Assembly: GCA_032718475.1 (NCBI GenBank) | Contig: JAUCBJ010004744.1 | Span: forward strand, 1 to 58,687 | DNA from: Nemertoderma westbladi | Taxonomy: Eukaryota; Animalia; Xenacoelomorpha | Direction: 5' to 3' | DNA: 58,687 nt | In this document: piece by piece, positions 1-57,570 of the stretch | Numbering within the stretch: position 1 is the stretch's first letter | How the letters are laid out: each line of letters begins with the position of its first letter | Notes under the pieces: model-generated | Database searches by the model: none | What the model was told of the DNA's origin: nothing | What the model saw: the letters and a program-made list of their open reading frames with translations, nothing else | Made by a program: the position numbers and the translations under genes

Positions 1-476
1 TTATCATTTTATATTTATGTATGTATTATTATGTAATTTTATTATAATCGTTTTCTTTAATTTTATTTAGTAGAATGTTATTTTAGCGATTATTTAGTAG
101 ATTAGTGCAATATATATTCGTGTTTATTATTTAATTACTTATATATTATATATTTAGTGCGACGGCGAGAAATAATTCTTTTTCTCTTTCCTTACTGTCC
201 GTATTACATTACAAATACGTAACTACAGTAAGATGAAATATCCGTACTTATTAAAGTACAATAAAGCTCCTACTATATTCAAGTATTATTGGTAAAGTAG
301 AGTATTAGGAATGCAAAATTCAGATCCTCGTGTCTCGGCTAAACCAAGCTCTGGGTAGACCTTGGAAACGACTTGCCTCTTCTCACTGACATTGCTTCGT
401 GCGATATTGCTCTCATACCGTATATTAAATAATACATATAGTAGCGTGATGTCCCTTTAACAGTAGCGTATAACGC

Positions 477-785
477 AAAATAAATCTGTTAAACCCTTTG
501 ACCATCTGCAATTCTAGTCGATTAAGATATCGCGGCACCCACCGATATACTTGAAAGACAAAATTCTAGAATCAGTGGTTAACGTCCCCAGACAAGTTCT
601 GGAATAAACTGGTGCCCATCCTAAATATTAATTATTAATATTTACAAAATCTGTCAAATTTTAGATCCTTTAAAATTCTAGTCTATTAAGATATCGTAGC
701 ACTTACCGATATTCTTAAAAAGACCAATTTCCTAGAATCAAGGATCCTAGTCCCCAGACATGTTCTGGAATAAAATTGTGTCTAT
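477..785 (+). repeat. Two diverged ~164-bp direct repeats, each able to form the same stem-loops
   Basis: TTCTAG..TAAGATATCG..CGATAT..CTT..CTAGAA and CCAGA-n5-TCTGG occur in both units (TTCTAG at 512 and 676); stems are conserved while loops differ. Confidence 0.75.
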
Positions 786-1404
786 TTAATATTAAATAAT
801 AAAATTTACGGGAATAAATTTAAATTCATATTTTAATGAATTTAATAAATTGTCATTTTTATACAATTTATAACATTCCCAAAATTCCTTTAATTAATAG
901 ATCATGGGAGCGGAGATTCACTCTATTAAGTGTATTAGTGTGCGAGAATCTCCAATATATAGTCAATAGCCGATAAAATTCATAAAATCATGTATAGAGA
1001 GGATATTGACCATTAAAGAATTACTATTAAATAGCATCCCAGATCTGTATGCATGAGAATTACCCTAATTCTACCGCTAGCTTTCCATAATGTCACCATG
1101 GCAACAACCACGCTAGAATTAGAAGTGAGTTAAAAGAACAATAGAAAGCTTGCCCCATTGAATAGCATAGGGAATAAATAGCGCACTGCTAGTATCCAAG
1201 GATACATAATAATAAAGTGACATTCTGGAAGGCACTGACTAACGGACAAATGGCCCGAATGTGTACAGTTTGTGACAGTTGTGTTGAATTTGTGCGTTTA
1301 TAGGTGAATGTTACTGCTAAAGTGTGTTTACAGTAGCGAGTCGCAATTGTGAAAGTAGCCCTAACTCTCCAGAAAGAACCTGAAGTACATCTAAGCCTTT
1401 GGGA

Positions 1405-1512
1405 CGGACAGTGGAGTGACTTGTGCCGGTTATCGTTGTCGTTGTGTAGCTACATCGTTGGCGAAAGCACAGCGACGACGGTACATCGGCGCTGAGGATC
1501 TTGCACTGTCCG
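1405..1512 (+). other. Long RNA stem-loop in the leader of the 1430-aa ORF
   Basis: 1405-1413 pairs with 1504-1512, 1423-1429 with 1486-1492, and 1431-1446 with 1468-1483; every non-Watson-Crick position in these stems is G-U on the + strand. Confidence 0.7.
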
Positions 1513-1593
1513 GGGGCAAAGAGGGGTAGGCAGCGACGCCCGCTAGCCTAAAATATAAACTCATTATAATATTGATAAACTCATATAGCAGAT

Positions 1594-4500
1594 ATGACTG
1601 AGTTGATAGAAGATGATCTTGGTATCAGGGAGCGATATACTCTACCTTTACAAGCGTTTGTCGATAGCTTGATACGCGGCGACGCTGGTCCAACTACTAC
1701 GGAGGATGATGGTCGTTATATCGAACCGCCAATGTCCCCGGAGCAACTTACGCGTGAATTGGATTATAGAAAGTTCACCGCTCGCTATACGCATCGTAAT
1801 GGTACGTATATGGACTTCTTAACTACTGGCCATCCTATCGATTTACACGATACGGACGATGTAGACACCGAAAGGGAAATGGTTTTATTTAAATATCATA
1901 CCCAGCGGAGTCGGAACGATAAACCGAGAATAGAACACGAGAATTCTATTCGAAACCGACTCGAAAGAGAAGACGTTGAAGAGCCGGATAAACGCAGCGA
2001 CTTCAACGATTATCTGGAATTCCTGAGAGAGACATATCTCAATATTGCCAGTCAACAAAATCTAGAAACTCGATATCCTCAAGGTATACATCATGATCCT
2101 ATGATAGAACTCAAACGACTCTATTTCACTATGATGTATCTTACCGCCGATCGACCGCTACCTGTCGTCCCAGATAGCTTCGAACAGATGGAGGAATATT
2201 GTAAAACTGGAGAACGATCACCCGCGTTTCCCCTGCAGGACGTGCGTCTTTGGTATTACTGCGACGAATGCCCTAGACCCAATCAGCAAACGGAAAGACA
2301 TAAACATCCGCGGAGACGTTGCGCTAAACACAGTTTTACACGATATACTTATGGGAGTTTCGAGCGAAACCTGTTCGACGTATCACCTACGGTCGCTCGG
2401 CTCAAACGATCCTTGAATAAACCAATGATCAGAGTTCCGGAATACTCGGTCAGACCTCCTCATTCCTCAGTTAGACCTCAGACTCTTGATCCTAATAGTA
2501 TCACGGATCCTCCCGAACTGTACTCACTGTTCAAAGATCTAGTGTTACCCGAACAGTTGATCGGTGGCACTCCGGTAGTGGGCTCACTAGATATTCGCCA
2601 ACCCTACCTAGCCGGATTAGGACGCGGTCATCTAATATCGCCGTTTAACCCGTACAACCGTCCCGGCTTCACCCCGATACAACCCGTTACGGAAGTCGAA
2701 GAGAGCGTCGTACGAAACGCGTTAGACGCTATTCGGCAGAAAATCGGAAAGGGAACTTACGATTGTTTGGAGAAACGTAAATTGCAGCAACAAGTCCAAG
2801 CGGTGAAAGAATTAGCTTTACCCCAGTTCGATAGAGAAATACAAAATCTCGAAGAGGACATCGAACGTGGACGAACCTACTCTTTACAAGAGTTCCTAGA
2901 TGAGCGTTTACAACAACAAGCGGAGGAAAATCAGCTCGAGGAGAGACATATAGAACTAGATGAGAGAGAAGAAGCAGCTTTAGCCCAGCCAGAAGCTCAA
3001 ATCCTTATAACAGATCTCTATTCTAAAACCATTATCCATCCTTCGATGGTTCCTCATTTCGGAGACAAACTCTTCGCCACGGCACAGCCTCAACCGGTTG
3101 ATATCAACCTAAGATCTCGAGATCTTATCGCTGACGCTCCCATGTTGCAACGTCCGCCCATCGAAGCCGCTCGTGTCGATGGTATACTCGTTGAACCTCC
3201 GGACAATAGAGCGGATCTTGTCCGTCGCATGGTACACGATGTTAACATACGCGCTAGACCTTTACCGGACTCGTTTTATGGGATCAAAGATCACCCTTAT
3301 TACGTCAATCTAACACAATATTACATGGTAAAACCGGAAGATCCTACACATAGTCTGAGGTTTCTACCACTAATAAATCCTCTCGATCTTGTCGAACTCG
3401 AACAACTGCAGAAACATCTGGATCAGTTAGTTAAAGTAAACTCATTTCGAAAACCATATAATGTTTCCAGAATAGAGAAAGAAACAATACCTCCGTATAA
3501 TCTTGATGGATTCATCAAAACTCGATTAGTACACTGGAATCTTGACGTGTTATTCGAGGAGGAAAGAATACAACGATATGGAGATGTGGAAACATATACT
3601 ACACAATACTTAAAGTATAGAGATCTACCTAATGCTAGCGAATGCGCTACCTTGTGGCATCCAGTGGGAATGACTCTCGAAAACGCCACTAAAGAGTGGA
3701 ACGAGACTCTTAACGTTATCGAGATGTATGGAGTTGTCACTTACGATAACGAAGGTAGCGTTCCGGTTGGAGAACTGGGAACTACGCGAATGATACACAT
3801 ACGAGGACTCGCTGGTTCTACCCACGTATTTACTCGAGCGTGTTCCGATGTGATTGATTATTCTTTTGAGACTCTTACTGAGACACAAAAGAAACTCCGA
3901 CATGGACAATTCGAACTCGCGCAGCGTTACGTCACCGACACCGAGCGCAAACCGGCCATGGGTATCGATGGATCGATGTTACCCCAGCCCGTGCTCGAGA
4001 TGTTGTTTAACGAAAGAATCCTTAAAATCGGCTCAGCTGTTTATGGAGATCTACAAAACGACTTTCGGAACATGGAGAACATTCCATACCCTTTCGTTGA
4101 TACTCAGCTGATTGCTCCCTGGGCAGAAGGCCGAGGTTTCTTCCGCACTATGTATGCCAATACACCCAGCGGCATTACTAAAGTACAACGAACCTCCATC
4201 GGACATCTTGCCTTTCAAGAATACGGATGGAATTTCAAGGTTGGAAATCCTATCAATTACCAACAAGTATATGGAGATCATTATTCTCGTTTATACTTTG
4301 ATGGACCATTGACCGCACCTGGCGCCATGTATAGCTTTATGAGTGTTCCACTTCGTCCCTCCTTAGCTATATACACGATCTTTGAAAACGCAGCACTTGC
4401 CGGTTGGCTAGCCGATGTGTGCAGTCGTACCATACGCGCCCATCCCTTAATACTTGGAACCAAACTCGCCAAGTTAGATGAACACAATAAATTCATCCGC

Positions 4501-5886
4501 TTCGAATGTTTCAGGCGCTTTCTGACTCCGTTCCGTAACGTTGATAGTCAGTTCAAGGACCGCGCTCTGACCAAACTCAGCCTAAGAGACTCAGCTGCGG
4601 AGAAGCTAAACAGCGCGGGATTTGCCCTTTTCCAGGACGTTTGTATACAGAACTTACATTCATCTGTTATACAAAGACCCCGAATACCCACGGGTTATTC
4701 TGTCGTGGAAGTTCAGACAGTGGGTCCGCTTGCGGAGACAGCCGCACCTACCTCAGCTATGCAATTGGAAGACGAACCAATATGCTTAGAATCTGAGGCG
4801 ATTCAGCCTACAGCGCCCCGGAGCAGCGATAACGACTACGTCTTAGAGTGGTATCAAGGTCCACAATGTCTCACCGCATACGATTATCGACACGCCAACT
4901 ATGTTTCTCGAAAACGTTGTCGATTATGCGCATCGAGAGACCATTTCACCCCTATGGACTCAGACGTACCCTGCTCCTATTTCCACGAACAACCGATGAT
5001 GGAGATCTATTGTGCGTATTGCAGACTTAATAACTCGCACATTTTTGCAGTCTGCCCCCAATTTATGACTCAATGCCACCACTGTCAACTTAAAGGACAT
5101 GCCAGTTATAATTGCCCCTTTAACCGCGATTTAGAAAGCGTAGATGAGATGATTACCCTGCGCTACATCCGAGCTTGGGAAGCGAACGCGGATTTACATT
5201 GTGAGTCCCGCCATCGCTATTACCCTGGACGCTCTTACGAGGGAGTTTACGCGTTCCATCCTTATTTATTCGCGTCTGTTGAACAAAAAACACGCACACC
5301 GAGTTACGAACTAATGAAGCGTGTTGGTGAGTGTATTTCCACCAAATTTGTTCGAAAATATCTCAGGAACGTCAATCCTAACGATATTACTTCATACCAT
5401 TTGATCAATTTCATCCGTCAAGACCCTGAGTATGGCGATTTATTTATCAACTCGCACCCTGAGTTACAGGAAGTATCTCGACGGCCCTACGAATATCGAG
5501 CCCGAGAACGCGAGCTGGAAAGAACCATTAAACCGAGGAAGTTTCTCACCACTCACGGTCCACCTACCGCCATTGTCCAGACGACCCGTCAAGGACCCGT
5601 AGGAGCTGCTGTCCTAAGACGTGCCCTAAAGGCCTTTAGACCTCGCTCCACTGAAGTTGATATCGATCAACCAGGTACTTCGACCGGCGGATACACCGAT
5701 CGTAATCCTAAACCTTCTGATGCAATTGTATTGCACCCTTCACCTTCACCCTTCATATCCTTCGCCCCAAAGAGAAAAGGACTCTTGCTAGCCTCAAAAA
5801 ACTGCGTAAACGCCATCCGCGTAAGAAAGACTAACTGTTTAGAGTATTTTTATATTTTAGAAACTGTGATTTTTTATATTTTATAG
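1594..5886 (+). CDS. 1430-aa intronless protein with a coiled-coil, a DEDDy/WRN-like 3'-5' exonuclease domain and a C-terminal CCHC zinc-knuckle cluster; probably of mobile-element or viral origin
   Basis: ExoI-like VTYDNEG (D at 3745, E at 3751), ExoII-like ILKIGSAVYGDL, FVDTQ, SIGHLA, ExoIII-like PLRPSLAIYTIFEN; CRLC..H..C, CAYC..H..C and CHHCQLKGHASYNC at 4918-5115; more GC-rich than its flanks; the last ~15 codons run into AT-rich DNA. Confidence 0.75.
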   Translation: MTELIEDDLGIRERYTLPLQAFVDSLIRGDAGPTTTEDDGRYIEPPMSPEQLTRELDYRKFTARYTHRNGTYMDFLTTGHPIDLHDTDDVDTEREMVLFKYHTQRSRNDKPRIEHENSIRNRLEREDVEEPDKRSDFNDYLEFLRETYLNIASQQNLETRYPQGIHHDPMIELKRLYFTMMYLTADRPLPVVPDSFEQMEEYCKTGERSPAFPLQDVRLWYYCDECPRPNQQTERHKHPRRRCAKHSFTRYTYGSFERNLFDVSPTVARLKRSLNKPMIRVPEYSVRPPHSSVRPQTLDPNSITDPPELYSLFKDLVLPEQLIGGTPVVGSLDIRQPYLAGLGRGHLISPFNPYNRPGFTPIQPVTEVEESVVRNALDAIRQKIGKGTYDCLEKRKLQQQVQAVKELALPQFDREIQNLEEDIERGRTYSLQEFLDERLQQQAEENQLEERHIELDEREEAALAQPEAQILITDLYSKTIIHPSMVPHFGDKLFATAQPQPVDINLRSRDLIADAPMLQRPPIEAARVDGILVEPPDNRADLVRRMVHDVNIRARPLPDSFYGIKDHPYYVNLTQYYMVKPEDPTHSLRFLPLINPLDLVELEQLQKHLDQLVKVNSFRKPYNVSRIEKETIPPYNLDGFIKTRLVHWNLDVLFEEERIQRYGDVETYTTQYLKYRDLPNASECATLWHPVGMTLENATKEWNETLNVIEMYGVVTYDNEGSVPVGELGTTRMIHIRGLAGSTHVFTRACSDVIDYSFETLTETQKKLRHGQFELAQRYVTDTERKPAMGIDGSMLPQPVLEMLFNERILKIGSAVYGDLQNDFRNMENIPYPFVDTQLIAPWAEGRGFFRTMYANTPSGITKVQRTSIGHLAFQEYGWNFKVGNPINYQQVYGDHYSRLYFDGPLTAPGAMYSFMSVPLRPSLAIYTIFENAALAGWLADVCSRTIRAHPLILGTKLAKLDEHNKFIRFECFRRFLTPFRNVDSQFKDRALTKLSLRDSAAEKLNSAGFALFQDVCIQNLHSSVIQRPRIPTGYSVVEVQTVGPLAETAAPTSAMQLEDEPICLESEAIQPTAPRSSDNDYVLEWYQGPQCLTAYDYRHANYVSRKRCRLCASRDHFTPMDSDVPCSYFHEQPMMEIYCAYCRLNNSHIFAVCPQFMTQCHHCQLKGHASYNCPFNRDLESVDEMITLRYIRAWEANADLHCESRHRYYPGRSYEGVYAFHPYLFASVEQKTRTPSYELMKRVGECISTKFVRKYLRNVNPNDITSYHLINFIRQDPEYGDLFINSHPELQEVSRRPYEYRARERELERTIKPRKFLTTHGPPTAIVQTTRQGPVGAAVLRRALKAFRPRSTEVDIDQPGTSTGGYTDRNPKPSDAIVLHPSPSPFISFAPKRKGLLLASKNCVNAIRVRKTNCLEYFYILETVIFYIL

Positions 5887-7091
5887 ACTAAAATCCCATT
5901 TTCTGGGAGCGGTGTAAAAGCTTTTGCGGAATTAGCCGGTTATTTTCCCCGTAAAGTACTCTGTAGTTGGTTTGACAGGCATAAAAGGCCTTATCCTTAC
6001 TGTACTGGTGTTTTAGTGGACATAAAAAGCCATTTCTTCTGTATGTGTACTTTAGCGGACATATTAGCAATTCTATGACGCAATACGCGAAATCCTCTTG
6101 AAACAGTGTAGTTACTATGACGACAGCTAACAGCTGATCTGTACACGTGTAGCTTTTTCCTTGTTCTCTGGTGTTTCTTTGTTCGGTCAACCAATCAGAG
6201 CGATTCTCCTGCTTTTTGTACAGAAACCTCCGGGAAATCGCGCAATGCATTATGGGTCAATGTTTACATTTTGTCCTGAGCCCAGAAGACCGGCTTTGGA
6301 ATCTCTGTGTTTTCAGTCTTTAGCCCAACATTAGTAGGCTTAATTATAGAACGTATATCTGTTATCATTACTTACTTAACTAATCATACCATAACATATC
6401 ATAACCATTCATACCTTAACATTTGTACTGCTATTTACTGTCGGTTATTCATTATATCAGTTGATGGAATATTATTATATTTGGAATACCGATAAATAAT
6501 TACAAAACCCTCAATCTTCTTGATATACTGAAGGTAAGAGAGACCGGTTACATATAACGATTGCGACTTACATTAAAGTGGTTTTTGAAGTGAATCTAAT
6601 GCTATTTCATAGGCACTACATGTATTGGTTGTTGTTCTCTTTATATGTGACTAAAATTAGTGAAGGTCGGCAGATCGGTGTGCAGCATTGTGCAGTATTG
6701 TGTATGATTGTGACTGATAACAAAGCATCTCCTAAAGAATGCGCCATATACGTCAATCCATAGCCATCCCGTTGTGTCTAGTTTAAGTCATAACTCTGTT
6801 TACATATTTAGAGCGCCACGTCCTAAAGGAACTGTTAATATTTCCCGAAAGTGAATAATATTTGTCAGAGATTATATATTACGATCAGTCGAATAATACA
6901 GTAGGCCTACACCGCAATAAGGTTAGGCTTCCGAATCCAGTCTCCCGGGTATATCCAGCGGGTGAATGGTCGCGCATAGACTGGCTTCGGCTAATGTAGT
7001 GTATCAAATACTCGTTAAAATGGATATTTTTCCCTAGGGCAAAATAACTTTTTTGGCCGTAGCCCAGCATTAGAGATAGTTATCATCCCGC

Positions 7092-7267
7092 TAATAAATG
7101 TGTAACAACTATGCTTATTCCCCAGAAGTTAGTTATTTTCCCAGTTATTTAACCCGCGGGCAGGAAACAACCCGAGGGCGAAGCCCGAGGGTGTTCCTGC
7201 CCAAGGGTTAAATAACTGGGAAAATAACTAACTTCTGGGGAATAAGTAAGTTGTTACACATTTATTA
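7092..7267. repeat. ~175-bp near-perfect palindrome centred on CCCGAGGGCGAAGCCCGAGGG
   Basis: Arms TAATAAATGTGTAACAACT..CTTATTCCCCAGAAGTTAGTTATTTTCCCAGTTATTTAACCC and their reverse complement. Confidence 0.95.
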
Positions 7268-8369
7268 TGGTATGCATTTCGATTATTTTTGTCCCTTAAC
7301 AACTATTTACAGATTCTAAAAGGGCATTGTTTGGGGGAAGAGTTTACAAAATGGGGCTTGGAAAGTTTTGGGGGTGTTTATATTGATTTTGCCCAAGGGC
7401 ATTGGAAAATTTTCGGTGTGTTTCACTTTAATTCATTAATTGCATAGGTGTTATTTTGCCCAAGGGAATAATAACACCCAAGCTCCAAAGGTAAAACATT
7501 AGGCCTACTGTGTCATGTGTGTTGTATAGCTCTATGCTTAATTCATCCAATCGCCGTAAGATTCGATCATCAAAAAAGCACCTGAATTTGTTACTGAAAA
7601 TTGATGTCAAACTTATTTAAATGGTTTACATTCTAAAATTCCCATTTTCTTACATTGGCCGCTAGGAGTAACATTGGATAAACTTCAAATTGGATATATG
7701 TATAACTAAATTGGCTGAATTAATTGAATAGTATTTTTGGTGGACATGTCATGTATCCACTACCCACAGAAGGGTGGTGTATATCGTTCACATTAAATAC
7801 ATTTATTAGTATAAATAATTATTTAGTACTTAGGAAAATGTTAATTAATTTAATGGTTCTGGAATATATGAAGTTTATTAAGAATATATATTATATGTAT
7901 ATGAATATATATTAATATATATATATTACTTACTATTGAGTTTCGGATTTTGCTCAAACTACGTGGATAGCTACAAACATTTTCTATTTCGATGCTCTTT
8001 CAACACATGTAATGAAGTTTAAGAAATTCCACGAAAAATATTTTCACATTTACATTTTTCGCCGGGAGAAGTTCAATGCAATCCTAGGCCTACTGTATGA
8101 TTAACTATTATTCCCTAGGGAAAAAAAGTAGGTACTTCTTTTTCTCCACATTTTGAGCTATATTTGAGCTAACTAAATAGTAACATTATAAGAATAACAT
8201 TAATATTCCCATAGTAACGGGTTGTTATGCCAGTTTTAAAAGAATGATGTCACTTAGAGTCGACCAACACCTATTTCCGCTCCACTATATCAAAGTATGG
8301 TCTAGAAAATGTAGTTTTGGCTAAGAACTGCATAAAAGTAAAGTAAAGTTATATTCAAACGTGTAAGAA

Positions 8370-8595
8370 GAAACACCCGAGGCAACAACCCAAAGGCTCC
8401 ATTCTCTTGGCTATTATCTGTAACGCAGGGAAGGCACCACACTACTCCCAAGGTCGAGTACTCTGGTTATCTAACCTTATTCTTTACTCCTTAACTCATG
8501 TCAGGTTGCCATTGGCCTACAGTACAACTGGAAGCTAGCAACAATTTGGCTGTTCTGGGGCTTGAACACCAGACCTTCCGCTTAGAAGACCGGTT
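8370..8595 (-). mobile_element. Degenerate tRNA-derived SINE
   Basis: B-box-like GTTCAAGCCC on the minus strand near 8557-8567 within a tRNA-like head. Confidence 0.4.
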
Positions 8596-9532
8596 AATAC
8601 TTTTTTTTTACTTTACTTTAATATTAAAACGTTTCAATGTCTGTATTAAAAAGAAAAAGGCAGAAAGGGGCGAACGTATTTAAACGACATTCTTAGATAT
8701 CTTTTTTTAACATTTAGGAGGAAGGAACTGGAGAAACGCCTCACTGCAGTACGAGGTAGTACGGTACCTTACAACCTATATTAATACAGGCCAAACTATA
8801 CCTACCTGCAGGGCTGCAGTCTGCCGACCTGGTACGGTGCGACTCTGGACTGTGACACTATGTAGGCCTACTGTACCGGTACCTCTTAATTTGCCGTGGA
8901 AATTGAAAGTTTAGTCATAGGTCAGTGCCGTCAGTATAAGTCGTCAGTATGAGTATGACAATGAGGTGATTAATGAGACATAAATAGGCCTTGCTGTCTA
9001 GAGGAGCACAGCCCAATAATAATGAAACATGAAATACAAAACGCCCAATAATAATGAAACATGAAGTACAAAACTAGTTGGTGGTCTGAATACCTGATTT
9101 ACACCTGATGTGACACACAACAGACCTAAGACGAGTACAGCAGCATTACCGGTTCCTATGTTTGTATGTCAGTATGTAACACTTCACTACTCTAAGAGGG
9201 AATAACATGGATATTTTTCCCTAGGGCAAAATAACTTTTTTGGCCGTAGCCCAGCATTAGAGATAGTTATCATCCCGCTAATAAATGTGTAACAACTTTT
9301 TATATTTCAAAGGTATTGATTTTATTTTCACTGCTACATATGGGAATCCACCATTAACAAATAAAATATAATAATTCTTAGTCTTATGATACATTTTGTA
9401 TGCATCTCTAGGAAGTAATATGTTAGATTATTACATATTCATCACCAAAACATCACATTTAACTTAAAATAAAACACACTGAGAAACATTTACTAATGAG
9501 ATGTTTATCTAGAGACTTGAATGATGAGACTT

Positions 9533-12500
9533 TTAATTGCTTGATATCTTAGCTGCCAAATATAACAAGCTGTTCTTCTTTTCTATTAGACTTTCTGGTG
9601 TGTCAAATTCCACTATATGTCCTTCACTCATCACTATTATTCTATCGCAGTTTATAATGGTATCTATCCGATGTGCTATTGTCATAACTGTTGCGTTAGG
9701 GAAATTCCTAGAGATGGCAGACTGTATAAGTTCATCGGTAAACTGATCAATAGAAGATGTTGCCTCGTCAATTAGAACAACCCTATATTTTCTTAGCATA
9801 GCTCTCGCTAAACACAGAAGTTGTCTCTCTCCAACACTTAGGTTACTACCACGGCTTTCAACATAAAAAGTTAAGATATCTATTTCCCCTTCTTTGGGAA
9901 TAATTGAACCATATTTATATTTGGACTCAAGTCTCATTTCCAAAAAAGACTTCAATTGAACCCTTTCTAGAGCTTCAATGATCTCAATACTTTCAAACTC
10001 ATTAAAAGGATCTAAGTTATATTGCAGAGTGCCTTCAAACAAAACAGGATCTTGTGGAATAACTGCAATTGACTTCCGTAAATCATGCAAACCAATTTCA
10101 GTTATATCAACATTATCTATAGTGATTAGTCCTTGAGGTTCAACAAGACGAAGTAACACTGTAAATAATGATGATTTTCCGGCTCCGGTGCGCCCAATAA
10201 TTCCGATCTTCTCAGAAGATCTTGTTTTAAAGTTTATTCCATGCAACACCTCATCATCTCCATAGTTAAGCTTCACATTTTTGAAGGTGATAATTCCAGA
10301 ATTTGGCCATTTAGTTGGAATTTGCGTGCCAGAAATGTGGAATTGAGCCTCTTGGTCTAATTTATAGTAATCAAGTACTCGTTCAACAGATGTTAAATTA
10401 ATTTCCAGTAGCGCTGACATTTTTATGAAATATGTGATAAAATTGGTGGTTCCAAACACATATATTACTGCTACAAACAATATCTCCTTAGATACAAAAC
10501 TATCCATATACAAAGAAATTAGTAAAACTGTAAATGCTAAAAATGGCATAAGGAATTGATATACTGATGCTAAGCAACGTAGTAAGATTATGAACCATAA
10601 ACATTGATTCGGTATGATGATCTAAGTGGGAAAAAAAGCGTTTCACGTAAATCGGTTGGACTTCAAATGCTTTTATAATATCACGGCCCTCCATAGTATC
10701 AGAAGCATGTTGAAATATTGGATTTCTCACTGATGCTTCAATAAACTTAACCTGTTTAAGACTTTTCATAATATACAAACGTATCAAGAAAACCATGATC
10801 ATTGTAGGGATAGCCAGCAATAAGGTCCATGGATTAGCTATTCCCGAAAGTAAAACTGCAAGAATGCAACGACTGAATGTATTTACGATTTCAACAATTA
10901 AATCTGGTAATATGTTGTCCATTATTCCAATATCTTTAGAGAATCGGTTGAGTATTCCACCTGCGGGATTCTGTTCAAAGAATTTCATTGGGGCATGAGA
11001 AACTCTTTTGAATATTTCTCCATGTAATTTATCAGATGCACCTAGTATAGCATGATATATTGCAAACATACCTAATGTACTGCACAGTAAGTATGAGAAA
11101 ACCAGATATGCATACCCAAGTACAATATCTCTCCACTGGCTCTCTATTATTAGTTGGTTTATAATATTATTATTGAGTTCAACATAATTTTGTTTTTGTG
11201 AATTATTAAATGATTCTTGAGTAGCCCAACTTACCAACCAATAATCTGACAATGACAGATATATGTATGTTAAAATCCCTGTTGATATTAATACCAGAAA
11301 ACGTGGTGCATTTAATCCAAATTTAATAAAAATGAGAATAATTGAAAACGTTGACTTGACTGATCTATCTTTATTATCGAAATTATTGTCAATATTGGGG
11401 TTGTGATTATCATCTTCGATAATTTTACTTTCATACATTTTAGAATAAACAATTTCTGTACCATTCGATGTCTCTGGCAAATCGCTTCTAATTAGGGTTT
11501 CAGTAACACCTTTGCCATAAAGAGACACTGTTTTTGAATTTGGAGGTATAATTTGTAGGAGGTGGGTGACCATGACGACAACTCCGTTGGACTGACAGTG
11601 CTTTAAACAGTTATCAACCAAGTCTTTGGCCACTCGTCTGTCTACAGCTGAAAGAGGATCATCCATAAGGTATATATTTGCCCTGGAATAAACTGCTCTT
11701 GCTAAGGCTATACGAGCTTTTTGACCACCAGATAATGATATCCCCTTTTCACCAACTAAAGTCATATCACCATCTTTAAACAGTAATAAGTCTGCTGATA
11801 AGCAACTTAGTTTAATAACTTCATCATACCAATCTCCTTCAAATATTTGCCCCAGCAAGATATTTTCCCTTATTGTTCCGGAGAATATGAATGGTGTTTG
11901 AGATACATAGGCCAGCTTTCCATTTTTCTCAATTAATCCACATTCAGGAGGCAATTCACCTAGTATTGCCTGCAATATGCTGGACTTTCCAGAACCTACT
12001 GGACCTATAATGTAAACTATTTCACCAAAAACTGCTTTGAAAGATACATTATGAATGATAGACCCATTCTTGAAAGACCATCTTCCTGTAATGTTTTCTA
12101 CCTTTACAAAAATATCTTTTGGATTTGGCATATTTCTTATTATTCCATTCCTTTGTAAGTCCTCTACATTAAACAATTGGTAATTTAAACCTATAAACGA
12201 ATCAATTCGTTGAAAAACACAATGAAGTTCCCCCAATTCACGTAAAGCAGCACCAAACACTAGTACGCTTGTGATTACATTGATTAATATGATGTTGGAG
12301 CTCATTACTGTGATTATATTTAATGGATACCCAAGTCCAGTATACAGAACATAGACACAAAAGGTGACAACATTAATATAGGCAAACAAAATGGTTGAGT
12401 AAAATGAGTGGCAATACATGATCTTACATATCTCTGATAATTCTTTACTTCGGGCATTCTTTACAGCAGCCTCATATAAATCTTCCCACCCAAACACTTT

Positions 12501-15126
12501 GATTGCTTTCATGCCAACTAATATTTCATGTATCAATGTTATTCTCCGATCAGTGAATGATGCAGCTTTCCGACGTACTAATGAAAATAATTTTGCAAAT
12601 CCTAGACTCAATGGGAAGACTAACATTACGAGTAACATACCAAAAATACCAGACCATTCCAGATTGAAATACATTAAAGGGAACACTAGAAATACCAAAA
12701 TAGGTGTTGAAATTAGACTATTCGCCAGAAATGAAAATTGTTCCACTCTTCCAACATCAGAGGACAACAAGTTAGTAACTTGACCTGTTGTAGTATTATT
12801 GATATTCCATGAATTTAATGTCAATATCTTTCTATATATAAGGGTACTGCATCCAACCTTAATTTTCATCCACAATAGGTTAGAATAAAAAGAAGAATTT
12901 ATGTTAGCAAACACTGATAAAAAAGAAGTTATTCCAATTATTAAGCAATCAAATAATGTTTTTTCTATTGAAAAATTGCTATCCATTTCCAAATAGTGTC
13001 CAATAAATCGTTGTAGAAATAATACTCTAACCAGCAGTGAAACTTCATGAATAGTTCTTAACATAGAACAAATGAGGTATTCTTTCCAATGTATTATTAT
13101 CAGTGTTCTCAGAATATTGAATTCTTCTTGTCTTGTTCCTCCGACTTTCTGAAATATATAAAAAATAAGAATGAGACCCCTTACATCACCTATATAATCG
13201 ACATGCTATATTGTAGTTAATGCAATACTGGCTTATTGACAAAATTGAGCAACTACAACTCCCTATCCCCCATGACTTTAGAGAGATGATCAGTATCTTC
13301 AAGGTTAGTGTCCTTTAAGAGGTGTCTCAAGAAAGTCATGGAATGTTCACCACATTCATTCTATCTATGTTTCTGCTAAAGCACCAGATAGTGCAAAGGT
13401 TGGTCCTCATGGCATAAACAATGTGCAGCAAAACGGAAAGGTGACTCCATTCAAGTGTAAGCTTGGGCTAAAGAAACACCTACAATGCATTATTGGTCTG
13501 GTTGGAGATATGTTTATTAAACTTGACATAATGAACCTGGTGTAACATTCTTGTGTATGAGCCATCCTGAGATTTGTTGTCCTCAGCAGTTAGAGCCCAA
13601 AATTTACTTCCATATAGGAGACCAGTTCTACTGCTGCTCTAAATAATCAACCTTGAGATTACATTTTATTCTGTGACTTCCAACCCGTAGATACACCATT
13701 CAATTTTGCCCATGCCTTTACCTTTATATATGCAGAGGTTGTCACCTGACTTTTATGCATACTTTTATGCTTACTTTACCAATTAGCAGAATCCACATAA
13801 GCAAGCAAACTTGATCCTGGCGTTGGAAGTTATGTTCATAATTCAGACATTTGTTGAGCACTGTTTAAGTAAACTGTCATCATGTTGGTCTTCATGAAGT
13901 TAACAAACAACTAACACTAGAAGCAACCAGCTCCAATGAGCTGAAGGGTCGATGAAAATAAACAAAACTGGTATGTATGCAGTCGGTCAAACGTCTAGAA
14001 ATGAATCTGAAGTTTTGTAAAAAAAATGAGACTGTCTATCAGTCAGTACATGTTAGTTTCAAACTTTTGATATAAACCGAAATAAGTCAGTCAATCATTG
14101 AAGAAATTAAATCAAACTTTGTAATGTATGCAGTACGACAAAAGGTTGGAAATAATCTGAAGCTTGGTCAAAAATGAGACAGTCTGTCAGTCGGTACCTG
14201 TAGTTTCAGACTTTAAAAAAAATCTAAAATAAGGCATCCAATCACAGATGAACTTAAACCAAACTTGTTATGTGTGCGGCTGCGTGCTGCGTGAAGGCCC
14301 CATGAACGTGTCACCAATAATGTGTGTATTTCTGAGTACATATTGTGTTTATAAAGCATTAAATTATTTATCAACGGGCAAAATCATGCCATTGTTTTAG
14401 AGCTTCTCAAAGGGGGACTTCCAACAGCTGATGTGATCAGCTGGAGATCTGCCTTAACCTTGGTGTTTTGTTTCCATTCACTCTCAGGCAGCAGATTTCT
14501 AGATTGCCTGCAACCATCATCGGCAGTGTTGATGGCATCAACCTGCTGATAGCTCCAGTATATGATATCTAAAATTAATATCCTTTTCCTGCAATAATTA
14601 GTTACTAACGACTCTGCAAAAACTATCTTACATACACTTACTGTAGCTTATAATGGCTATCAAAATTAGAAAATACTCAAGCAACACGTGTTCTAGAAGT
14701 TTATTGTTAGTGATTATTTTGCAGCATTCAACGCGATAGGCTACAACAGTTACGAGGATATCACTATAACGCAGAGAAGTTACATAATGTAGAAATATAT
14801 ACTATTTAATTTTAAAGCATAAATTTCGACCAACATGATGTTGGATGTAGTGTCCTACTCCCAGAAACGACTTTTACAACCTCGCCTCAGAGTCATTACT
14901 TTGATGGAGCGACTGCATGTAAATAGAACACAATAACACCCACCTTGCTGTTTAGAGTTTTTAGTAAAATGTAGCTCTGGTAATCAGCTGTTAGACTTTC
15001 AGGAATTGGTCTAATGAAGTCATCACTAGAGATTCTCCTGTGCGACTGGATCCTTAGAAAAGGCAAAATGTATGAATAGAACAAAGGGAAGAAAGGGTTA
15101 ATTTTCAAATGTGCAATCATAATCAT
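9533..15126 (-). CDS. ABCC/MRP4-like ABC transporter (L0-TMD1-NBD1-TMD2-NBD2, no TMD0); at least 2 exons; one frameshift near 10550
   Basis: NBD1 GPVGSGKS, LSGGQ, YLMDD; NBD2 GRTGAGKS, LSVGE, VLIDEA; TMD2 FFEQNPAGGILNRFSKD. Upstream exon ~15126-14944 encodes L0-like NPFFPLFYSYILPFLRIQSHRRISSDD; phase-0 GT-AG intron 14943-13149 joins it in frame to exon 13148-9533. Confidence 0.9.
13965..14275. repeat. Degenerate ~150-bp tandem duplication in the ABCC intron
   Basis: TATGCAGT..AATCTGAAG..AAAATGAGAC..TCAGTC..TAGTTTCA occurs twice. Confidence 0.6.
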
Positions 15127-16050: not shown

Positions 16051-16457
16051 TTCGACTCCGACTTCCGGCCAACCATGTTAAAGAGCTGTAACTTCAGGTT
16101 ATTATTTACCTAAAGTACACTATTTTACATGCAGTATGTATAGTGTGCGGAACAGTATAATGTGGTACAGTATATATATAGTATGGAATATGGTACGTTA
16201 ACAGAATGCTTCACTAATAAGCAAATCCTACAGTTATTTGTAGTCGCTCCTAATCCTGTAAAAATAATTAACCCCTAATTTCCAACCTTTACACAGCATA
16301 TTCAAACACGAGACACCTATACCCATGCATTAAACAACACTAAACTGTTTCCGAGTTACTGTAGGCCCAATAGTAGGTCTAGATTTAAATTAAAAAACCT
16401 CCAGGCACACACAATCAGTCATCAGCTCATGTTGACTTTTCTAACTTGTGGTAGCAG

Positions 16458-19175
16458 GTATGTAGGTCTCCTGTATGATAATTATACAGTTTGATGTGGT
16501 TCTGTATTCGTATCAGTTGGTACATTATGTACGATGTATGTAGGCCTACTGTATGATAATTATACAGTTTGATGTAGATCTGTATTCGTATCAGTAGGTA
16601 CAGTATGTACTATGTATGTAGGCCTCCTGGATGATAATTATACAGTTCGATGTGAATCTGTATTCGTATCAGTTGGTACAGTATGTACTATGTATGTAGG
16701 CCTATTGTATGCTAATTATACAGTTTGATGTGGATCTGTATTCGTATCAGTTGGTACAATATGTACTATGTATGTAGGCCTCCTGTATGATAATTATACA
16801 GTTTGATGTAGATCTGTATTCTATTCTGTGTATGTACAGTACTATGTATGTAGGCTTTCTATGATAATTATACAGTTTGATGTGGATCTGTATTCGTATC
16901 AGTTGATACAGTATGTACTATGTTTGTAGGCCTCCTGTATGATAATTATGCAGTTTGATGTGGATCTGTATTCGTATCAGTTGATACAGTATGTACTATG
17001 TTTGTAGGCCTCCTGTATGATAATTATGCAGTTTGATGTGGATCTGTATTCGTATCAGTTGATACAGTATGTACTATGTTTGTAGGCCTCCTGTATGATA
17101 ATTATGCAGTTTGATGTGGATCTGTATTCGTATCAGTTGATACAGTATGTACTATGTTTGTAGGCCTCCTGTATGATAATTATGCAGTTTGATGTAGATC
17201 CGTATTCGTATCAGTTGATACAGTATGTACTATGTATGTAGGCCTCCTGTATGAAAATTATGCAGTTTGATGTAGATCTGTATTCGTATCAGTTGGTACA
17301 GTATGTACTATGTATGTAGGCCTCCTATGATAATTATACAGTTTGATGTGGATCTGTATTCGTATCAGTTGGTATAGTATGTACTATGTATGTAAGCCTT
17401 CTGTACGATAATTATACAGTTTGATGTAGATCTGTATTCGTATCAGTTGGTACAGTATGTACTATGAATGTAGGCCTACTGTATGATAATTATACAGTTT
17501 GATGTGGATCTGTATTCATATCAGTTGGTACAGTATGTACTATGTATGTAGGCCTCCTGTATGATAATTATACAGTTTGATGTGGTTCTGTATTCGTATC
17601 AGTTGGTACAGTATGTACTATGTATGTAGGCCTCCTGTATGATAATTATACAGTTTGATGTGGTTCTGTATTCGTATCAGTTGGTACAGTATGTACTATG
17701 TATGTAGGCCTCCTGTATGATAATTATACAGTTTGATGTGGTTCTGTATTTGTATCAGTATGTACGAAGTATGTAGGCCTCCTGTATGATAATTATAAAG
17801 TATGATGTGGATCTGTATTCGTATCAGTAGGTACAGTATGTACTGTGTATGTAGGCCTACTGTATGATAATTATACAGTTTGATGTGGTTCTGTATTTTG
17901 TATCAGTTGGTACAGTATGTACTATGTATGTAGGCCTACTGTATGATAATTATACAGTTTGATGTGGATCTGTATTCGTATCAGTTGGTACAGTATGTAC
18001 TATGTATGTAGGCCTACTGTATGATAATTATACAGTTTGATGTGGATCTGTATTCGTATCAGTTGGTACAGTATGTACTATGTATGTAGGCCTACTGTAT
18101 GATAATTATACAGTTTGATGTGGATCTGTATTCGTATCAGTTGGTACAGTATGTACTATGTATGTAGGCCTACTGTATTATAATTATGCAGTTTGATGTG
18201 GATCTGTATTTGTATCAGTATGTACGAAGTATGTAGGCCTCCTGTATGATAATTATAAAGTTTGATGTGGATCTGTATTCGTATCAGTAGGTACAGTATG
18301 TACTGTGTATGTAGGCCTACTGTATGATAATTATACAGTTTGATGTGGTTCTGTATTTTGTATCAGTTGGTACAGTATGTACTATGTATGTAGGCCTACT
18401 GTATGATAATTATACAGTTTGATGTGGATCTGTATTCGTATCAGTTGGTACAGTATGTACTATGTATGTAAGCCTTCTGTACGATAATTATACAGTTTGA
18501 TGTGGATCTGTATTCGTATCAGTTGGTACAGTATGTACTATGTATGTAGGCCTACTGTATGATAATTATACAGTTTGATGTGGATCTGTATTCGTATCAG
18601 TTGGTACAGTATGTACTATGTATGTAGGCCTACTGTATTATAATTATGCAGTTTGATGTGGATCTGTATACGAATCAGTATGTACTGTACGATGTATGTA
18701 GGCATCCTGTATGATAATTATACAGTTTGATGTGGATCTGTATTCGTATCAGTTGGTAAAGTATGTACTATGTATGTAGGCCTATGCCTCCTGTATGATA
18801 ATTATACAGTTTGATGTGGATCTGTATTCGTATCAGTTGGTACAGTATGTACTATGTATGTATGCCTCCTGTATGATAATTATACAGTTTGATGTGGATC
18901 TGTATTCGTATCAGTTGGTACAGTATGTACTATGTATGTATGCCTCCTGTATGATAATTATGCAGTTTGATGTGGATCTGTATTCGTATCAGTTGGTACA
19001 GTATGTACTATGTATGTATGCCTCCTGTATGATAATTATACAGTTTGATGTGGATCTGTATTCGTATCAGTTGGTACAGTATGTACTATGTATGTAGGCC
19101 TCCTGTATGATAATTATACAGTTTGATGTGGATCTGTATTCGTATCAGTAGCAGACAGTATGTACCATGTATGTA
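16458..19175. repeat. 78-bp satellite array, about 34-35 units
   Basis: Consensus GTATGTAGGCCTCCTGTATGATAATTATACAGTTTGATGTGGATCTGTATTCGTATCAGTTGGTACAGTATGTACTAT. Confidence 0.97.
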
Positions 19176-19919
19176 CTGTAGGGTTGTAGGCCTGGGTACA
19201 ACCTGTGATTTTATGGTTGACTAAACTGTAACCAATTAAATCTAAATCGGTAGTTTTGGTCATATAAACTGCAAACCGGAGATTATAATGAATGCTGATA
19301 TCAGTTTCACCATATGCGAGTTCGAATTGATGTTATTAAGATGCAAATCAGCCGTGATTTATAATTTTGCTTATCATGGTGCATGCTGCCTAATGTAGGC
19401 CTACAAACATGATAAGTAAATCATGAACTGAAATGAAATATATAATGGGAAATTTTCTTGATGCACCTGTTTGAAAATATTGAAATATAAATATATAAAT
19501 ATCTGAAAAGATTGAATAAAATATAAAATATTGACATTATTATTATTAACATGAATTTAACATCTGGTAAAATTCCGTATTTGAGGTTTTACTCAATATT
19601 TCTAGCAAGTAATATGCATATCATCTGCCTTAAACTCTAATGATAGTACTGTAATCCTACGGTTTTCCCTTGTATGTTTTTAAAATGTCATAAACATTTA
19701 GGCGTATGGGGTTAGATTTTCCTATGTTGTTGAATCTCATTCTAGCGCGCTGTATTGCTGTCCGACCTCGTTCAGTATTACGCATTGCTGATCGCTCTTC
19801 CTCATTGGTACATCTTATTTTATTAAATAACTACTGTAAACGTATATTTCATATCTATTAAATTGATATTATAATATAGAAAAATTATTTTGCTTTATAA
19901 ATTGAATGTACAGTAGTAG

Positions 19920-29564: not shown

Positions 29565-30469
29565 TTATTGTTGAATGTAGTCATGGAAGGAGTTCAAGCC
29601 CTTTAGATTAGTGAGCAGCATACCAATCCAAAATCGTTCTGATTTTCTTAGTTTCTTTATTGTTTCTACGCAGTTATCCCTTCTTGGTAATTGATCGATC
29701 AAAATAAATTTCAAGTTTTTGGAGGATTTGTTGTGTTTTTCGATGAGATGTACGCCGATATTGCAACTTTTCACACCTTTTTTTATATGAGATTTATAAT
29801 TTCCAAGCCTCTTCTTGAAATTGATTGTTGAGCCAACACCCTGTAAATTGCATTCTATGCAGATAGCTAAATATACTACATTTTCCGAGTAACAGTTTAA
29901 TCGTTTGTTTATTTTAAAAGTCTTGCCTGTAGCTACACATTTGAAATGGTTGGTGTCAATTAAGTAATTTTCACAACAGTCACACTTTTTAGCGCTACAA
30001 TTGTAACAACCAGGATTATCAATGCATGATAATTGTTTATATGGATTGGATGGTGCTAGAAGTTCTTTTAGGTTTGGGTTTCTTTTATATGCAACAATTA
30101 TTTCGTTTTGAGGTAGTATTTTCCTTGCCATTTCGTTTGACTCTAATATACCATAATGTTTATTGATAAGTCTTTTAAAGTTTGGAGCCATTGGGTTATA
30201 CGTTGTTACTAAAACTGTTGGATTTTTAATACTTTTGTTTTTTCCTTTATAATTTCTTGCTTCCAATCTTTGCATGTTCCTAACTTCTTCAAAGACTGTA
30301 TTTACATGATCTGCATTATGTCCACACTTAATTAGGTGGTTCTTGTACACGTTACCTTGAGTCACATAGTCTTTATCTTTTGTGTTAATTCTTTTCAACC
30401 TTAAGGCCACTCCTTTAGGAATTCCGTTGATTTGGCATTTAGGGTGGGCAGATTTACTATTTAAAGTTA
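29565..30469 (-). mobile_element. 5'-truncated Penelope-like element: thumb, Cys-rich linker and GIY-YIG endonuclease
   Basis: SAHP..IPKGVALRL, CYNCSAKKCDCC, NVVYLAIC..CNLQGVGST..RLGNYKS, E.FWI..L.T..GLN; homology to the longer copy ends at ~30469. Confidence 0.9.
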
Positions 30470-32095
30470 GATTACAAGTTTTTTGGAAGATACTATGAAG
30501 TTGGACATACATAATATGAGAGATTGTCGAAAAATATCAAAAGTAATCCTCTTGGGGTATTATTTTACCCCACGTTACCGGGGGAGGGTTAAAAGATAAT
30601 TTCGACCAGTTCTCCAAGCCAAAATAATATATTTTCCTTCTCAGCTAATTTGTTGGAGCCATTTTCGGATAGGAAAGTGACTCAAGGGTCATAAAATCCA
30701 CAAGGTTGACTTTTGGGCAGCAACTAAGAAATTTAAATAACACTTAATTCGAAGATCTGCCAAAATGTTGTTATCAGATTTTGATAAACGATACAAAGCG
30801 AAAGAAAGATAAACTACCAACCTACTACAGGCAGCAGGTAGTTGGGAAAAGAGGAAGGACTGTGCCAGCACTAATTACTAAAGGTATGATTCGTACCATC
30901 AGAATTCGTACCATCTTTATGAGTTCCTTTTGCTCAGCTCGAACTGAGCAATCCATTAGTCCGCTTATAACCTTTGCCGCTTTAGTGGCTCCTGCCTTGT
31001 TAACCGCTGCGACCTGCGTCTTTGCAGTGTCCTTCCCGAGCACGCGCCGCCCCCCCTTCTTTCCGACCGAGTTATTGTTTAGTCTCTTAAGATTGACTTT
31101 CCCTCTATGGGAGCTCAGGGCTTTAAGTTTATAAACAAGACCGAGATTCTTCTGATCTTGTTGATACTAAATAATAATGTTGCATTGTAGATGCAAGCCT
31201 TGCGTGATTTAATACTGAAATGGTTTGTAAGTGGTTTATTCAGTATGTAATAAAATAATTAATGTTTTCTTTTTTTTTATTCTTTAATTATTTTGATATG
31301 TATTTATTAGGGTGTTATATATTTTTTCAATTTGTTATGATATTGCCACTCCTCATATCCCGAATTTTTTAATTTGGCGCCCTTCACAAATCAGTGTCTT
31401 ATGGCACTTGCCTCCACCCCCCTCTGTCAATATTCAACCACGACGCAGTCAGGGCGAGCCTTAGCGCACAATTATAATCAGTAATAGTCGGTAAAAAATT
31501 TAATGTCGGTCTGTAATGAAAAATTCATTCGTAAATAAGTTGATTCAGATAAGTCAGAAGATTAGTCAGTATGTGATGAATACAATACTCCAGGCTACTG
31601 ATGATAAGAGAGATGCCCAAAAGGCTCTTCTTATATCTAAAGAATGGGGTTAATGCCACTCATTGTTCGGTGAAGCAAAGATGTATGTATGCCTCACATG
31701 TCCTTCAAAAAATGGAGGATGATATTGAGTTGAGTTTACATTGTGATTGATACTACTGACCAGCATTTCTTCCATAAGGATTCTTAACTAAAACCACATA
31801 TGGTAGACAATCCTGAATCTGAAATTAAAAGGGCGAATCTTTATATCTATGTAAAGAAGGGATGCTATAACATAACTGAGATCCAGCGTAATAAATTTCT
31901 TGCAAATTTTGCTGATCAAAGTAAAGTGAAGTATGCCAAGCATGTTGTAGTATTCCTCTGTAGAGAAAATCTTAAGGAGGATAATGGAGAATGCTTTATT
32001 CTAATTAAAAAAATATTTTTTTTCGAACATATCCAAGAGTTACAATGCTATTAAAAAAAACTAGTAAAAAAACTATTGTTTTTTTTCAGTTTATA

Positions 32096-57400: not shown

Positions 57401-57570
57401 TCTGTTAAATTAAATACTTTTACGTTACTATTTGTTGTTACATTAACATTTCCAATGCTTTCATTTTCCTGTTCTAGAACATTTAAGGATTTCTCCAAAT
57501 TTCCTAGACTTTCTTTATTATTTTTTGACATAATATCATTTACTAATGATCTCATTTTATTTCTAAACAC
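54479..57570 (-). mobile_element. Penelope-like retroelement (RT plus C-terminal GIY-YIG, Neptune-like Cys linker), inactivated
   Basis: RT motifs DKG, KLHK..PARVI, SFDIINMFPSI, GTAMG, RYRDDIF; frameshift near 56175; 47-bp duplication at ~55954-56047; insertion at 55255-55886; premature stop at 54815. Confidence 0.93.
55255..55886. mobile_element. Non-autonomous insertion with long imperfect inverted ends and a GTCY microsatellite (Helentron/DINE-like)
   Basis: Absent from the copy at ~30338-30342; ACGTAGTCGGCGAGCCTTGGCATACGGTTCATATAG is inverted at ~55818-55860; (GTCT/GTCC)n at 55315-55362; no clear TSD. Confidence 0.8.

What the first reader, a model, noticed from the sequence alone, without database searches (positions are those of the whole stretch)
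300..1593. ~1.3-kb leader densely packed with stem-loops, including a long G-U-rich hairpin
Seen: a 16-bp stem (1431-1446 with 1468-1483) whose three mismatches are all U-G on the + strand, flanked by two further stems. Other stems occur at 912-919/946-953, 962-968/1004-1010 and 1068-1074/1114-1120. G-U-only mismatches suggest selection on the + strand RNA rather than a DNA palindrome. Inference: an IRES, packaging signal or ribozyme-like element serving the 1430-aa ORF.
Basis: partly seen in the sequence, partly recalled or inferred. Interest (0 to 1): 0.7.

Follow-up and report, generated by a model that had tools for sequence, protein, structure and literature searches.

The report
Conserved RNA hairpin in mobile element
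A 108-base hairpin just ahead of the one long gene seen in a much-copied animal mobile element keeps its base pairs as copies diverge, and likely is an RNA handle that a protein would grip to package or move the RNA of what is probably a retrotransposon.

Summary
The main hairpin is real and longer than reported: 1405-1512, -62 kcal/mol, z -6.6 on the + strand against -2.7 on the minus strand. Its 25-pair core has 6 G-U and no A-C. The region lies in a many-copy repeat. In other copies, 19 of 20 listed changes at paired sites keep or can keep pairing, and four double changes co-occur in single contigs (inferred from depth sums). Pairing is therefore under selection in a + single strand, most likely RNA.

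'Densely packed' holds only in part: structure clusters at about 420-960 (a 164-bp tandem duplication and AT-rich palindromes) and 1400-1550. The three small stems are insignificant or misplaced.

The 1430-aa ORF is under purifying selection and carries a weak RNase D-like exonuclease signal plus CCHC knuckles. It is followed by a purine tract and an LTR-like end, as in rotifer LTR retrotransposons with an exonuclease ORF3. No reverse transcriptase, integrase or 5' LTR of this element is in view.

Best reading: a shape-recognised packaging or transport signal (0.4). Translation control is the main rival (0.3). A ribozyme is not supported.

The parts
1405..1512 (+). Main hairpin, 108 nt, 44 predicted pairs; pairing kept across copies
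   Evidence: z -6.58; variants
1423..1492 (+). Core helix 1423-1447/1467-1492: 25 pairs (19 Watson-Crick, 6 G-U, 0 A-C), one bulged base at 1484; variable apical part 1448-1466
   Evidence: apical variants
1405..1423 (+). 5' basal strand with no listed variant (0 of 19 positions against 27 of 89 in the rest of the hairpin); includes the 5' side of a predicted 3x3 internal loop 1417-1419/1497-1499
   Evidence: edge effects of the laid stretch cannot be excluded
1527..1550 (+). Small GC-rich hairpin, 9 predicted pairs; conservation not established
1311..1593 (+). ATG-free stretch before the ORF (0 seen, 5.2 expected); likely the mRNA leader of the ORF
   Evidence: weak acceptor-like AGs at 1268, 1303, 1333, 1588, 1591 and a TATA-like word at 1554
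482..645 (+). Tandem unit 1 (164 bp) with a long hairpin and a 5-bp hairpin
   Evidence: (z -2.9)
647..809 (+). Tandem unit 2, 76% identical to unit 1, same fold; 2 of 30 pairs changed on both sides, none broken
   Evidence: (z -3.2 on +, -3.3 on -)
820..845 (.). AT-rich inverted repeat that folds on both strands; no strand preference
1594..5886 (+). Intact 1430-aa ORF (P0001) under purifying selection
   Evidence: 20 of 24 listed coding variants synonymous
3736..4428 (+). Predicted RNase D-like (DEDDy-type) 3'-5' exonuclease domain, aa about 715-945; candidate acidic residues D718, E720, D819, Y927, E931 assigned by eye
   Evidence: weak, converging; residue positions
4918..5115 (+). Cluster of Cys/His zinc-knuckle motifs, aa 1109-1174
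   Evidence: Pfam zf-CCHC_3 E 0.0006, below the curated cut-off; shared with P0002
5905..5912 (+). Short purine-rich tract 19 nt after the stop, followed by TG; candidate polypurine tract
   Evidence: depth peak in 5761-6000 in all four runs
5913..7017 (+). Candidate 3' LTR (CCAAT box at 6191; right end near 7012-7019 against another repeat); no second copy in the window
   Evidence: inferred

Best explanation
The 1405-1512 hairpin keeps its pairing across copies on the + strand only and is likely a cis-acting RNA signal of a many-copy mobile element, probably an LTR-type retroelement, that would be recognised by shape and would recruit the RNA into a protein particle for packaging or transport. 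Shown: the fold, its strand bias, pair-preserving variation, the repeat nature of the region and selection on the ORF. Inferred: that the strand is RNA rather than single-stranded DNA, that the element is an LTR retroelement whose 5' part lies left of the window, and that the ORF is an RNase D-like exonuclease with zinc knuckles. Predicted and untested: the binder, either the element's own knuckle/exonuclease-fold protein or a Gag from the unseen part. The rest of 300-1593 is a spacer with a tandem duplication, not one structured unit.
For: Strand bias: -62.4 against -34.7 kcal/mol; 6 G-U and 0 A-C in the core. Of 20 listed variants at paired sites, 15 keep the pair alone, 4 are matched by a listed partner change and 1 breaks. 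Depth sums place both partners in the same X4 contig for 1432/1482 (record 17), 1434/1480 and 1427/1488 (records 18, 20) and 1446/1468 (record 22). Random placement of the 19 transitions leaves no broken pair in 0.08% of 200,000 trials; a minus-strand model leaves 5 broken. Helix and apical sequence drift while shape is kept, which fits a shape-read helix. In X4 depth rises from 800-2200 (1-1200) to 7000-10500 (1441-1920), peaks again at 5761-6000, and internally deleted forms join 1962 to 4767 and 2955 to 5685: the hairpin-to-ORF-start block and the purine-tract block are what relatives share, as expected of cis signals. Precedents: RNase D-like ORF3 in rotifer LTR retrotransposons (PMC5408684); structured packaging and export signals in retroelement RNA (PMC3362945); a DEDDy domain that binds RNA stem-loops by shape (10.1101/2025.08.03.668247).
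Against: No reverse transcriptase, integrase, protease, primer-binding site, 5' LTR or target-site duplication of this element is in view (no genome held). The LTR call rests on an 8-nt purine tract (2 such hits in 5800-7050), depth steps and one short loose end. Transcription is not shown: all four runs are contigs and none is on record as RNA. The ATG-free 283 nt fit a translated leader better than a pure packaging signal. The variants come from related copies with no tree, so they are not independent events; linkage is inferred from depth sums, not read from sequences (17 of 20 variants tested resolved); the one pair-breaking transversion (1471) was left out of the permutation and sits in the deepest X4 contig listed. 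The exonuclease call is weak (RNase D E 0.024; Atlas 0.88, a lead only; both AlphaFold models had pLDDT about 30). Depth is no copy number. Deleted copies could keep the hairpin passively.
Confidence: 0.4

Rival explanations
1. The hairpin lies in the 5' UTR of the ORF's own (spliced or internally started) mRNA and controls translation, by internal entry, shunting or as an operator bound by the protein.
For: No ATG in 1311-1593 (5.2 expected, P 0.006). The hairpin ends 81 nt before the ATG, followed by an AU-rich stretch. Acceptor-like AGs at 1268, 1303 and 1333. Rotifer ORF3s are described as made from spliced messages (PMC5408684); Drosophila gypsy has two IRES (PMC4276936). A helix of about -60 kcal/mol would block scanning (established knowledge), so a bypass would be needed.
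Against: No Rfam match in 1150-1650 up to E 10. One long helix without pseudoknot or multi-way junction. The last upstream ORF (1308-1352) ends about 50 nt before the helix, farther than the few bases recalled for pararetroviral shunts. A TATA-like word at 1554 and AGs at 1588/1591 could place the mRNA start downstream of the hairpin.
Confidence: 0.3
2. The hairpin works in single-stranded DNA, as an origin or end signal of a DNA-based element (Helitron-like, or a DNA transposon carrying a DEDDy nuclease as some Dada elements do).
For: G-T wobble is also tolerated in single-stranded DNA; DNA-parameter folding still favours + (-24.3 against -17.7 kcal/mol). Internally deleted derivatives are typical of DNA transposons. 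Two Dada families encode a DEDDy domain (PMC3706591).
Against: The hairpin is at least 1.4 kb inside the element, not at an end. No transposase or Rep/helicase signal in the ORF. No terminal repeats found in 1-7000. Dada's nuclease lies inside a DDE transposase and most Dada genes have introns.
Confidence: 0.12
3. The hairpin is a small-RNA precursor (pri-miRNA- or siRNA-like).
For: A long, nearly continuous helix of suitable length with G-U pairs.
Against: Both arms of the core take compensatory and single-sided changes along their length, whereas a mature small RNA would be conserved in sequence. No Rfam miRNA match there.
Confidence: 0.08
4. The region is a self-cleaving ribozyme.
For: A CUGANGA word at 1492-1498 and a short stretch at 1360-1420 recall hammerhead and twister cores (motifs recalled). 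Penelope-type elements carry hammerheads (PMC6431247).
Against: Rfam gives nothing. My scans found no hammerhead core with a closing stem II on either strand of the window, no HDV-like fold in 1-7200 and no twister motif in 1-7200 (descriptors recalled and strict).
Confidence: 0.04
5. The hairpin is chance folding or a decayed DNA inverted repeat.
For: 53 of 88 possible transitions keep a pair anyway, and the small stems elsewhere in the region are at chance level.
Against: z -6.6; 6 G-U against 0 A-C; linked double changes; permutation P about 0.0008.
Confidence: 0.03

Closest known systems
Juno and Vesta LTR retrotransposons of bdelloid rotifers with an RNase D-like DEDDy ORF3 (PMC5408684; passages and part 2 of 5 read)
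   Same: An RNase D-like exonuclease ORF in a mobile element, here also directly ahead of a candidate purine tract and LTR.
   Different: This ORF is 1430 aa with zinc knuckles after the nuclease domain and about 700 unassigned N-terminal residues; its candidate tetrad reads D-E-D-E by eye, against DEED reported there. gag and pol are not seen. No leader hairpin is mentioned in that paper's main text (0 hits for 'hairpin' and 'stem-loop'). Kinship of the proteins was not tested.
Retroelement RNA packaging and export signals (retroviral psi, MusD transport element; PMC3362945, passages)
   Same: Structured cis element in a noncoding part of the element, with function tied to fold.
   Different: One long helix; no kissing loop or pseudoknot found; the 10-nt palindrome at 1445-1454 is not kept in variant copies; no Rfam match; function untested.
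Egalitarian and its stem-loop cargo signals, including that of the I factor (bioRxiv 10.1101/2025.08.03.668247, abstract and passages)
   Same: A DEDDy exonuclease fold that grips an A-form RNA stem-loop largely by shape.
   Different: Egalitarian is a host protein and its signals are 40-65 nt; here hairpin and nuclease-like gene lie in one element. Binding is not shown, and no sequence link to Egalitarian was found.
Terminons / Athena Penelope-like elements (PMC6431247, passages)
   Same: Accessory DEDDy ORFs in retroelements with structured RNA.
   Different: Those carry hammerhead ribozymes and telomeric repeats; no hammerhead was found here.
P0002 (unnamed 648-aa protein, the only hit among 1.84 billion representatives)
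   Same: Exonuclease-like domain (30% identity over 150 aa) followed by a knuckle cluster.
   Different: Lacks the long N-terminal part; its genomic context could not be read.

Membership tests
Structured RNA under selection | Folding better than dinucleotide shuffles on one strand | tested here: met
   z -6.58 on +, -2.74 on -
Structured RNA under selection | Compensatory changes among homologues | tested here: met
   4 double changes placed in single contigs by depth sums, 15 single pair-keeping changes, 1 break; no tree correction
Structured RNA under selection | The + strand is transcribed | not testable with these tools
   only contigs available, none on record as RNA
LTR retrotransposon | Two LTRs (TG...CA) with a target-site duplication | tested here: inconclusive
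   one candidate 5913 to about 7017; no second copy in the window; left end lies outside it
LTR retrotransposon | Polypurine tract before the 3' LTR | tested here: inconclusive
   8-nt tract at 5905-5912; 2 such hits in 5800-7050
LTR retrotransposon | pol (protease, RT, RNase H, integrase) and primer-binding site | not testable with these tools
   absent from 1-7017; the part left of the window could not be fetched
DEDDy 3'-5' exonuclease | Profile or fold match | tested here: inconclusive
   RNase D E 0.024; Atlas features 0.88; P0002 Pfam E 0.2; no PDB match; models unusable
DEDDy 3'-5' exonuclease | Four acidic residues and the motif III tyrosine | tested here: inconclusive
   D718, E720, D819, Y927, E931 by eye; D819, Y927 and E931 align with P0002, while MAFFT put motif I elsewhere
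Hammerhead / HDV-like / twister ribozymes | Conserved catalytic core in the right helical frame | tested here: not met
IRES | Cap-independent initiation | not testable with these tools
   no Rfam match; needs a reporter
SECIS or kink-turn | Tandem G-A core with the right flanking geometry (features recalled) | tested here: not met
   GA/GA words at 1418-1419 and 1494-1498 exist, but no 3-nt bulge on a canonical stem and a 25-pair helix instead of about 11 (by eye); no Rfam match
Dada DNA transposons | DDE transposase and insertion in a small-RNA gene | tested here: inconclusive
   no transposase hit, though Dada transposases are hard to detect; no tRNA gene in the window, no snRNA by Rfam in 1-8000

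The most novel reading that the evidence does not exclude
An invertebrate mobile element encodes its own Egalitarian-like RNA adaptor, a nuclease fold plus zinc knuckles, that binds the hairpin ahead of its own gene: a Rev/RRE-like protein-RNA pair in a retroelement family with almost no known relatives, possibly spreading without a pol gene of its own.
Probability: 0.12. Interest if true: 0.8.

Novelty: new variant of a known kind. Interest (0 to 1): 0.47.

Why it matters
Cis-acting RNA structures of invertebrate retroelements are rarely backed by covariation, and the role of the exonuclease ORFs some of them carry is open (PMC5408684 says their activity is yet to be shown). Here a compact helix with natural compensatory variants sits next to such an ORF, so binding, translation and localisation can each be tested on isolated pieces. 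If the protein binds the hairpin, it would give these accessory nucleases a job. If not, this is an uncatalogued but ordinary transposon signal.

Tried and rejected
Rfam on 1-8000, 1150-1650 and 5800-7050: only chance-level miRNA/snoRNA matches, none in the finding. Own ribozyme scans negative for this region. Protein searches: none for P0001 at near or shorter lengths (longer not searched), only itself for P0002, nothing meaningful in the PDB. Related loci: none in metagenome contigs by protein or by hairpin pattern, none in viral contigs. Two AlphaFold jobs gave pLDDT 29-30, so no fold search was run. No domain-level Atlas search was obtained. No RNA holder listed; this is no evidence on expression. 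A dimer-initiation palindrome (1445-1454) was rejected because common variants at 1447, 1448 and 1454 break it. No long-range partner for 1395-1423 clearly better than its local one (-27.3 at best against -26.0). No repeat links the 5' and 3' noncoding regions, so the leader is not itself an LTR and no split direct repeats are seen. Earlier findings of this scan: none in four look-ups. Literature searches listed no paper that describes this element or a nuclease-plus-knuckle ORF with a leader hairpin; I saw most results only as listings, Repbase-type catalogues and subscription journals are not searchable here, and no supplementary files were read (element tables or alignments there could bear on novelty).

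Full report
Setting. The window looks like animal genomic DNA: satellites and dispersed repeats, a GIY-YIG ORF and an intronless ABC transporter, no tRNA genes. No whole genome is held. The finding lies ahead of an intact 1430-aa ORF at 1594-5886.

Checking the observation. The 16-bp stem is as described, with 13 Watson-Crick and 3 U-G pairs. It is part of a 108-nt hairpin, 1405-1512, with 44 predicted pairs. The stretch 1400-1515 folds at -62.4 kcal/mol, z -6.58, 0 of 200 shuffles as good; its reverse complement at -34.7, z -2.74. The 25-pair core has 6 G-U and no A-C. Of 4 uninterrupted stems of 16 bp or more on the + strand of the whole window, 3 have at least 6 G-C pairs; two are perfect palindromes found on both strands, and this one appears on + only. 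Two of the three small stems pair as stated but are not significant on +; the third does not pair at the given coordinates. In 120-nt windows, 7 of 20 in 300-1593 reach z <= -2 on +, against 8 of 101 controls. They cluster at 420-960 and 1380-1500. The first cluster is a 164-bp tandem duplication (482-645, 647-809; 76% identical) whose units share a fold, with 2 of 30 pairs changed on both sides and none broken, plus AT-rich palindromes. These fold about as well on the minus strand, so they are weaker evidence for RNA.

The region is a repeat. Five of seven listed public runs hold the stretch or part of it; none is on record as RNA. Four were laid on 1-7200. X1 alone gave 56,486 contigs, many at 90-99% identity, and all 30 bins are covered in all four. 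Internally deleted forms join 1962 to 4767 and 2955 to 5685. Depth is not a copy number, but it peaks at 5761-6000 and drops 4- to 33-fold in the next bin in all four runs, and in X4 it climbs from 800-2200 (1-1200) to 7000-10500 (1441-1920). The left end lies outside the window.

Covariation. Laying the same runs on 1390-1565 listed 40 variants (1 more not shown). Twenty-nine fall in 1405-1512 and 20 of these at paired sites: 15 keep the pair alone, 4 need a partner change that is itself listed, and 1 breaks the pair. Depth sums over the 8 listed X4 contigs resolved 17 of 20 variants tested and put both partners in one contig for 1432/1482, 1434/1480, 1427/1488 and 1446/1468. Placing the 19 transitions at random on the 88 paired positions leaves no broken pair in 0.08% of trials (0.04% with base identity kept); a minus-strand model leaves 5 broken. 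Limits: the breaking transversion was not in the permutation, copies are related, the structure came from the window's copy, and linkage is inferred from numbers. The outermost predicted stem (1397-1401/1517-1521) is broken by 4 of 6 variants and is rejected. The apical part varies freely. Positions 1405-1423 show no listed variant (0 of 19 against 27 of 89), with a possible edge effect.

The ORF. Of the 40 best-supported variants listed (1939 more not shown), 24 are coding; 20 are synonymous against 34% expected for transitions, so the protein has been under purifying selection. Pfam gives no real hit on the whole protein. A search with its last 1200 residues found one relative among 1.84 billion representatives, P0002 (E 1e-6), with the same order of domains. 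Three weak lines point to an RNase D-like exonuclease: Atlas features (0.88 to a cluster with DNA_pol_A_exo1 and zf-CCHC, a lead only), RNase D models at E 0.024 and 0.16 on aa 798-843, and DNA_pol_A_exo1 at E 0.2 on P0002. The knuckles score E 0.0006, below Pfam's cut-off. Structure models were unusable.

What kind of element. Nineteen bases after the stop comes an 8-nt purine-rich tract followed by TG at 5913, then a CCAAT box at 6191. The element seems to end near 7012-7019, where a different repeat begins that recurs at 9209; one X5 contig departs there. This reads as ORF, polypurine tract, 3' LTR, the arrangement of rotifer Juno and Vesta elements whose ORF3 is an RNase D-like nuclease (PMC5408684). 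It is an inference at about 0.55: no second LTR, pol or primer-binding site is in view, and scans for other loci found nothing.

How it likely works. A helix whose sequence drifts while pairing is kept, with free G-U exchange, is probably read as a double-stranded RNA shape, with the invariant basal strand and internal loop as a possible specific contact. Its place at the start of the block that relatives and deleted forms share suits a signal needed in cis, hence packaging or transport (0.4). Such signals are known in retroelement RNA (PMC3362945), and a DEDDy domain can act as a stem-loop reader (10.1101/2025.08.03.668247). The main rival is translation control (0.3): 1311-1593 has no ATG where 5.2 are expected, which suggests a translated leader, and gypsy has IRES elements (PMC4276936). 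The two roles need not exclude each other. A single-stranded DNA role (0.12), a small-RNA precursor (0.08), a ribozyme (0.04) and chance (0.03) rank lower.

Papers seen: PMC5408684 passages and part 2 of 5; PMC3706591 part 1 of 4; PMC6431247, PMC6338049, PMC3362945 and PMC4276936 passages; the Egalitarian preprint abstract and passages; all others as search listings only. No supplements were read. Ribozyme, SECIS, kink-turn, shunt, splice and promoter motifs are recalled, not taken from a call.

Verdict. It is a new variant of a known kind, a structured cis signal in a mobile element with an unusual accessory protein. Interest 0.47.

Noticed in passing
window 9533-13064 (-): Intronless ABC transporter (two membrane and two ATPase domains) split over two overlapping ORFs, 10500-13064 and 9533-10549; frameshift, retrocopy or assembly error.
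   Followed up: no
window 56149-57633 (-), 29565-30536 (-), 54815-55417 (-): Pieces of a Penelope-like element: a GIY-YIG ORF (Pfam), a second partial copy, and an ORF that looks like the N-terminal half of a reverse transcriptase by eye (no Pfam hit).
   Followed up: no
window 49974-52190 (+): Intact intronless 738-aa ORF, transposase-like by eye, with no meaningful Pfam or NCBIfam hit.
   Followed up: partly
window 7022-7473; second partial copy at 9209: MITE-like repeat with 24-nt inverted ends and an internal hairpin of 53-nt arms, 7114-7246; abuts the right end of the element studied.
   Followed up: partly
window 6890-7020: Three successive predicted hairpins at the element's right end, z -2.2 on both strands.
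   Followed up: partly
window 160-300: Folding region left of the finding, z -3.5 on + and -2.7 on -, inside the same repeat.
   Followed up: partly
window 16351-19282; 22322, 34094, 41169: 78-bp satellite array, and a 54-bp tandem repeat at three sites that is open in several frames.
   Followed up: no
window 2263-2328 (ORF aa 224-245): A Cys/His cluster in the unassigned N-terminal half of the 1430-aa protein, possibly another zinc site; no Pfam hit.
   Followed up: no
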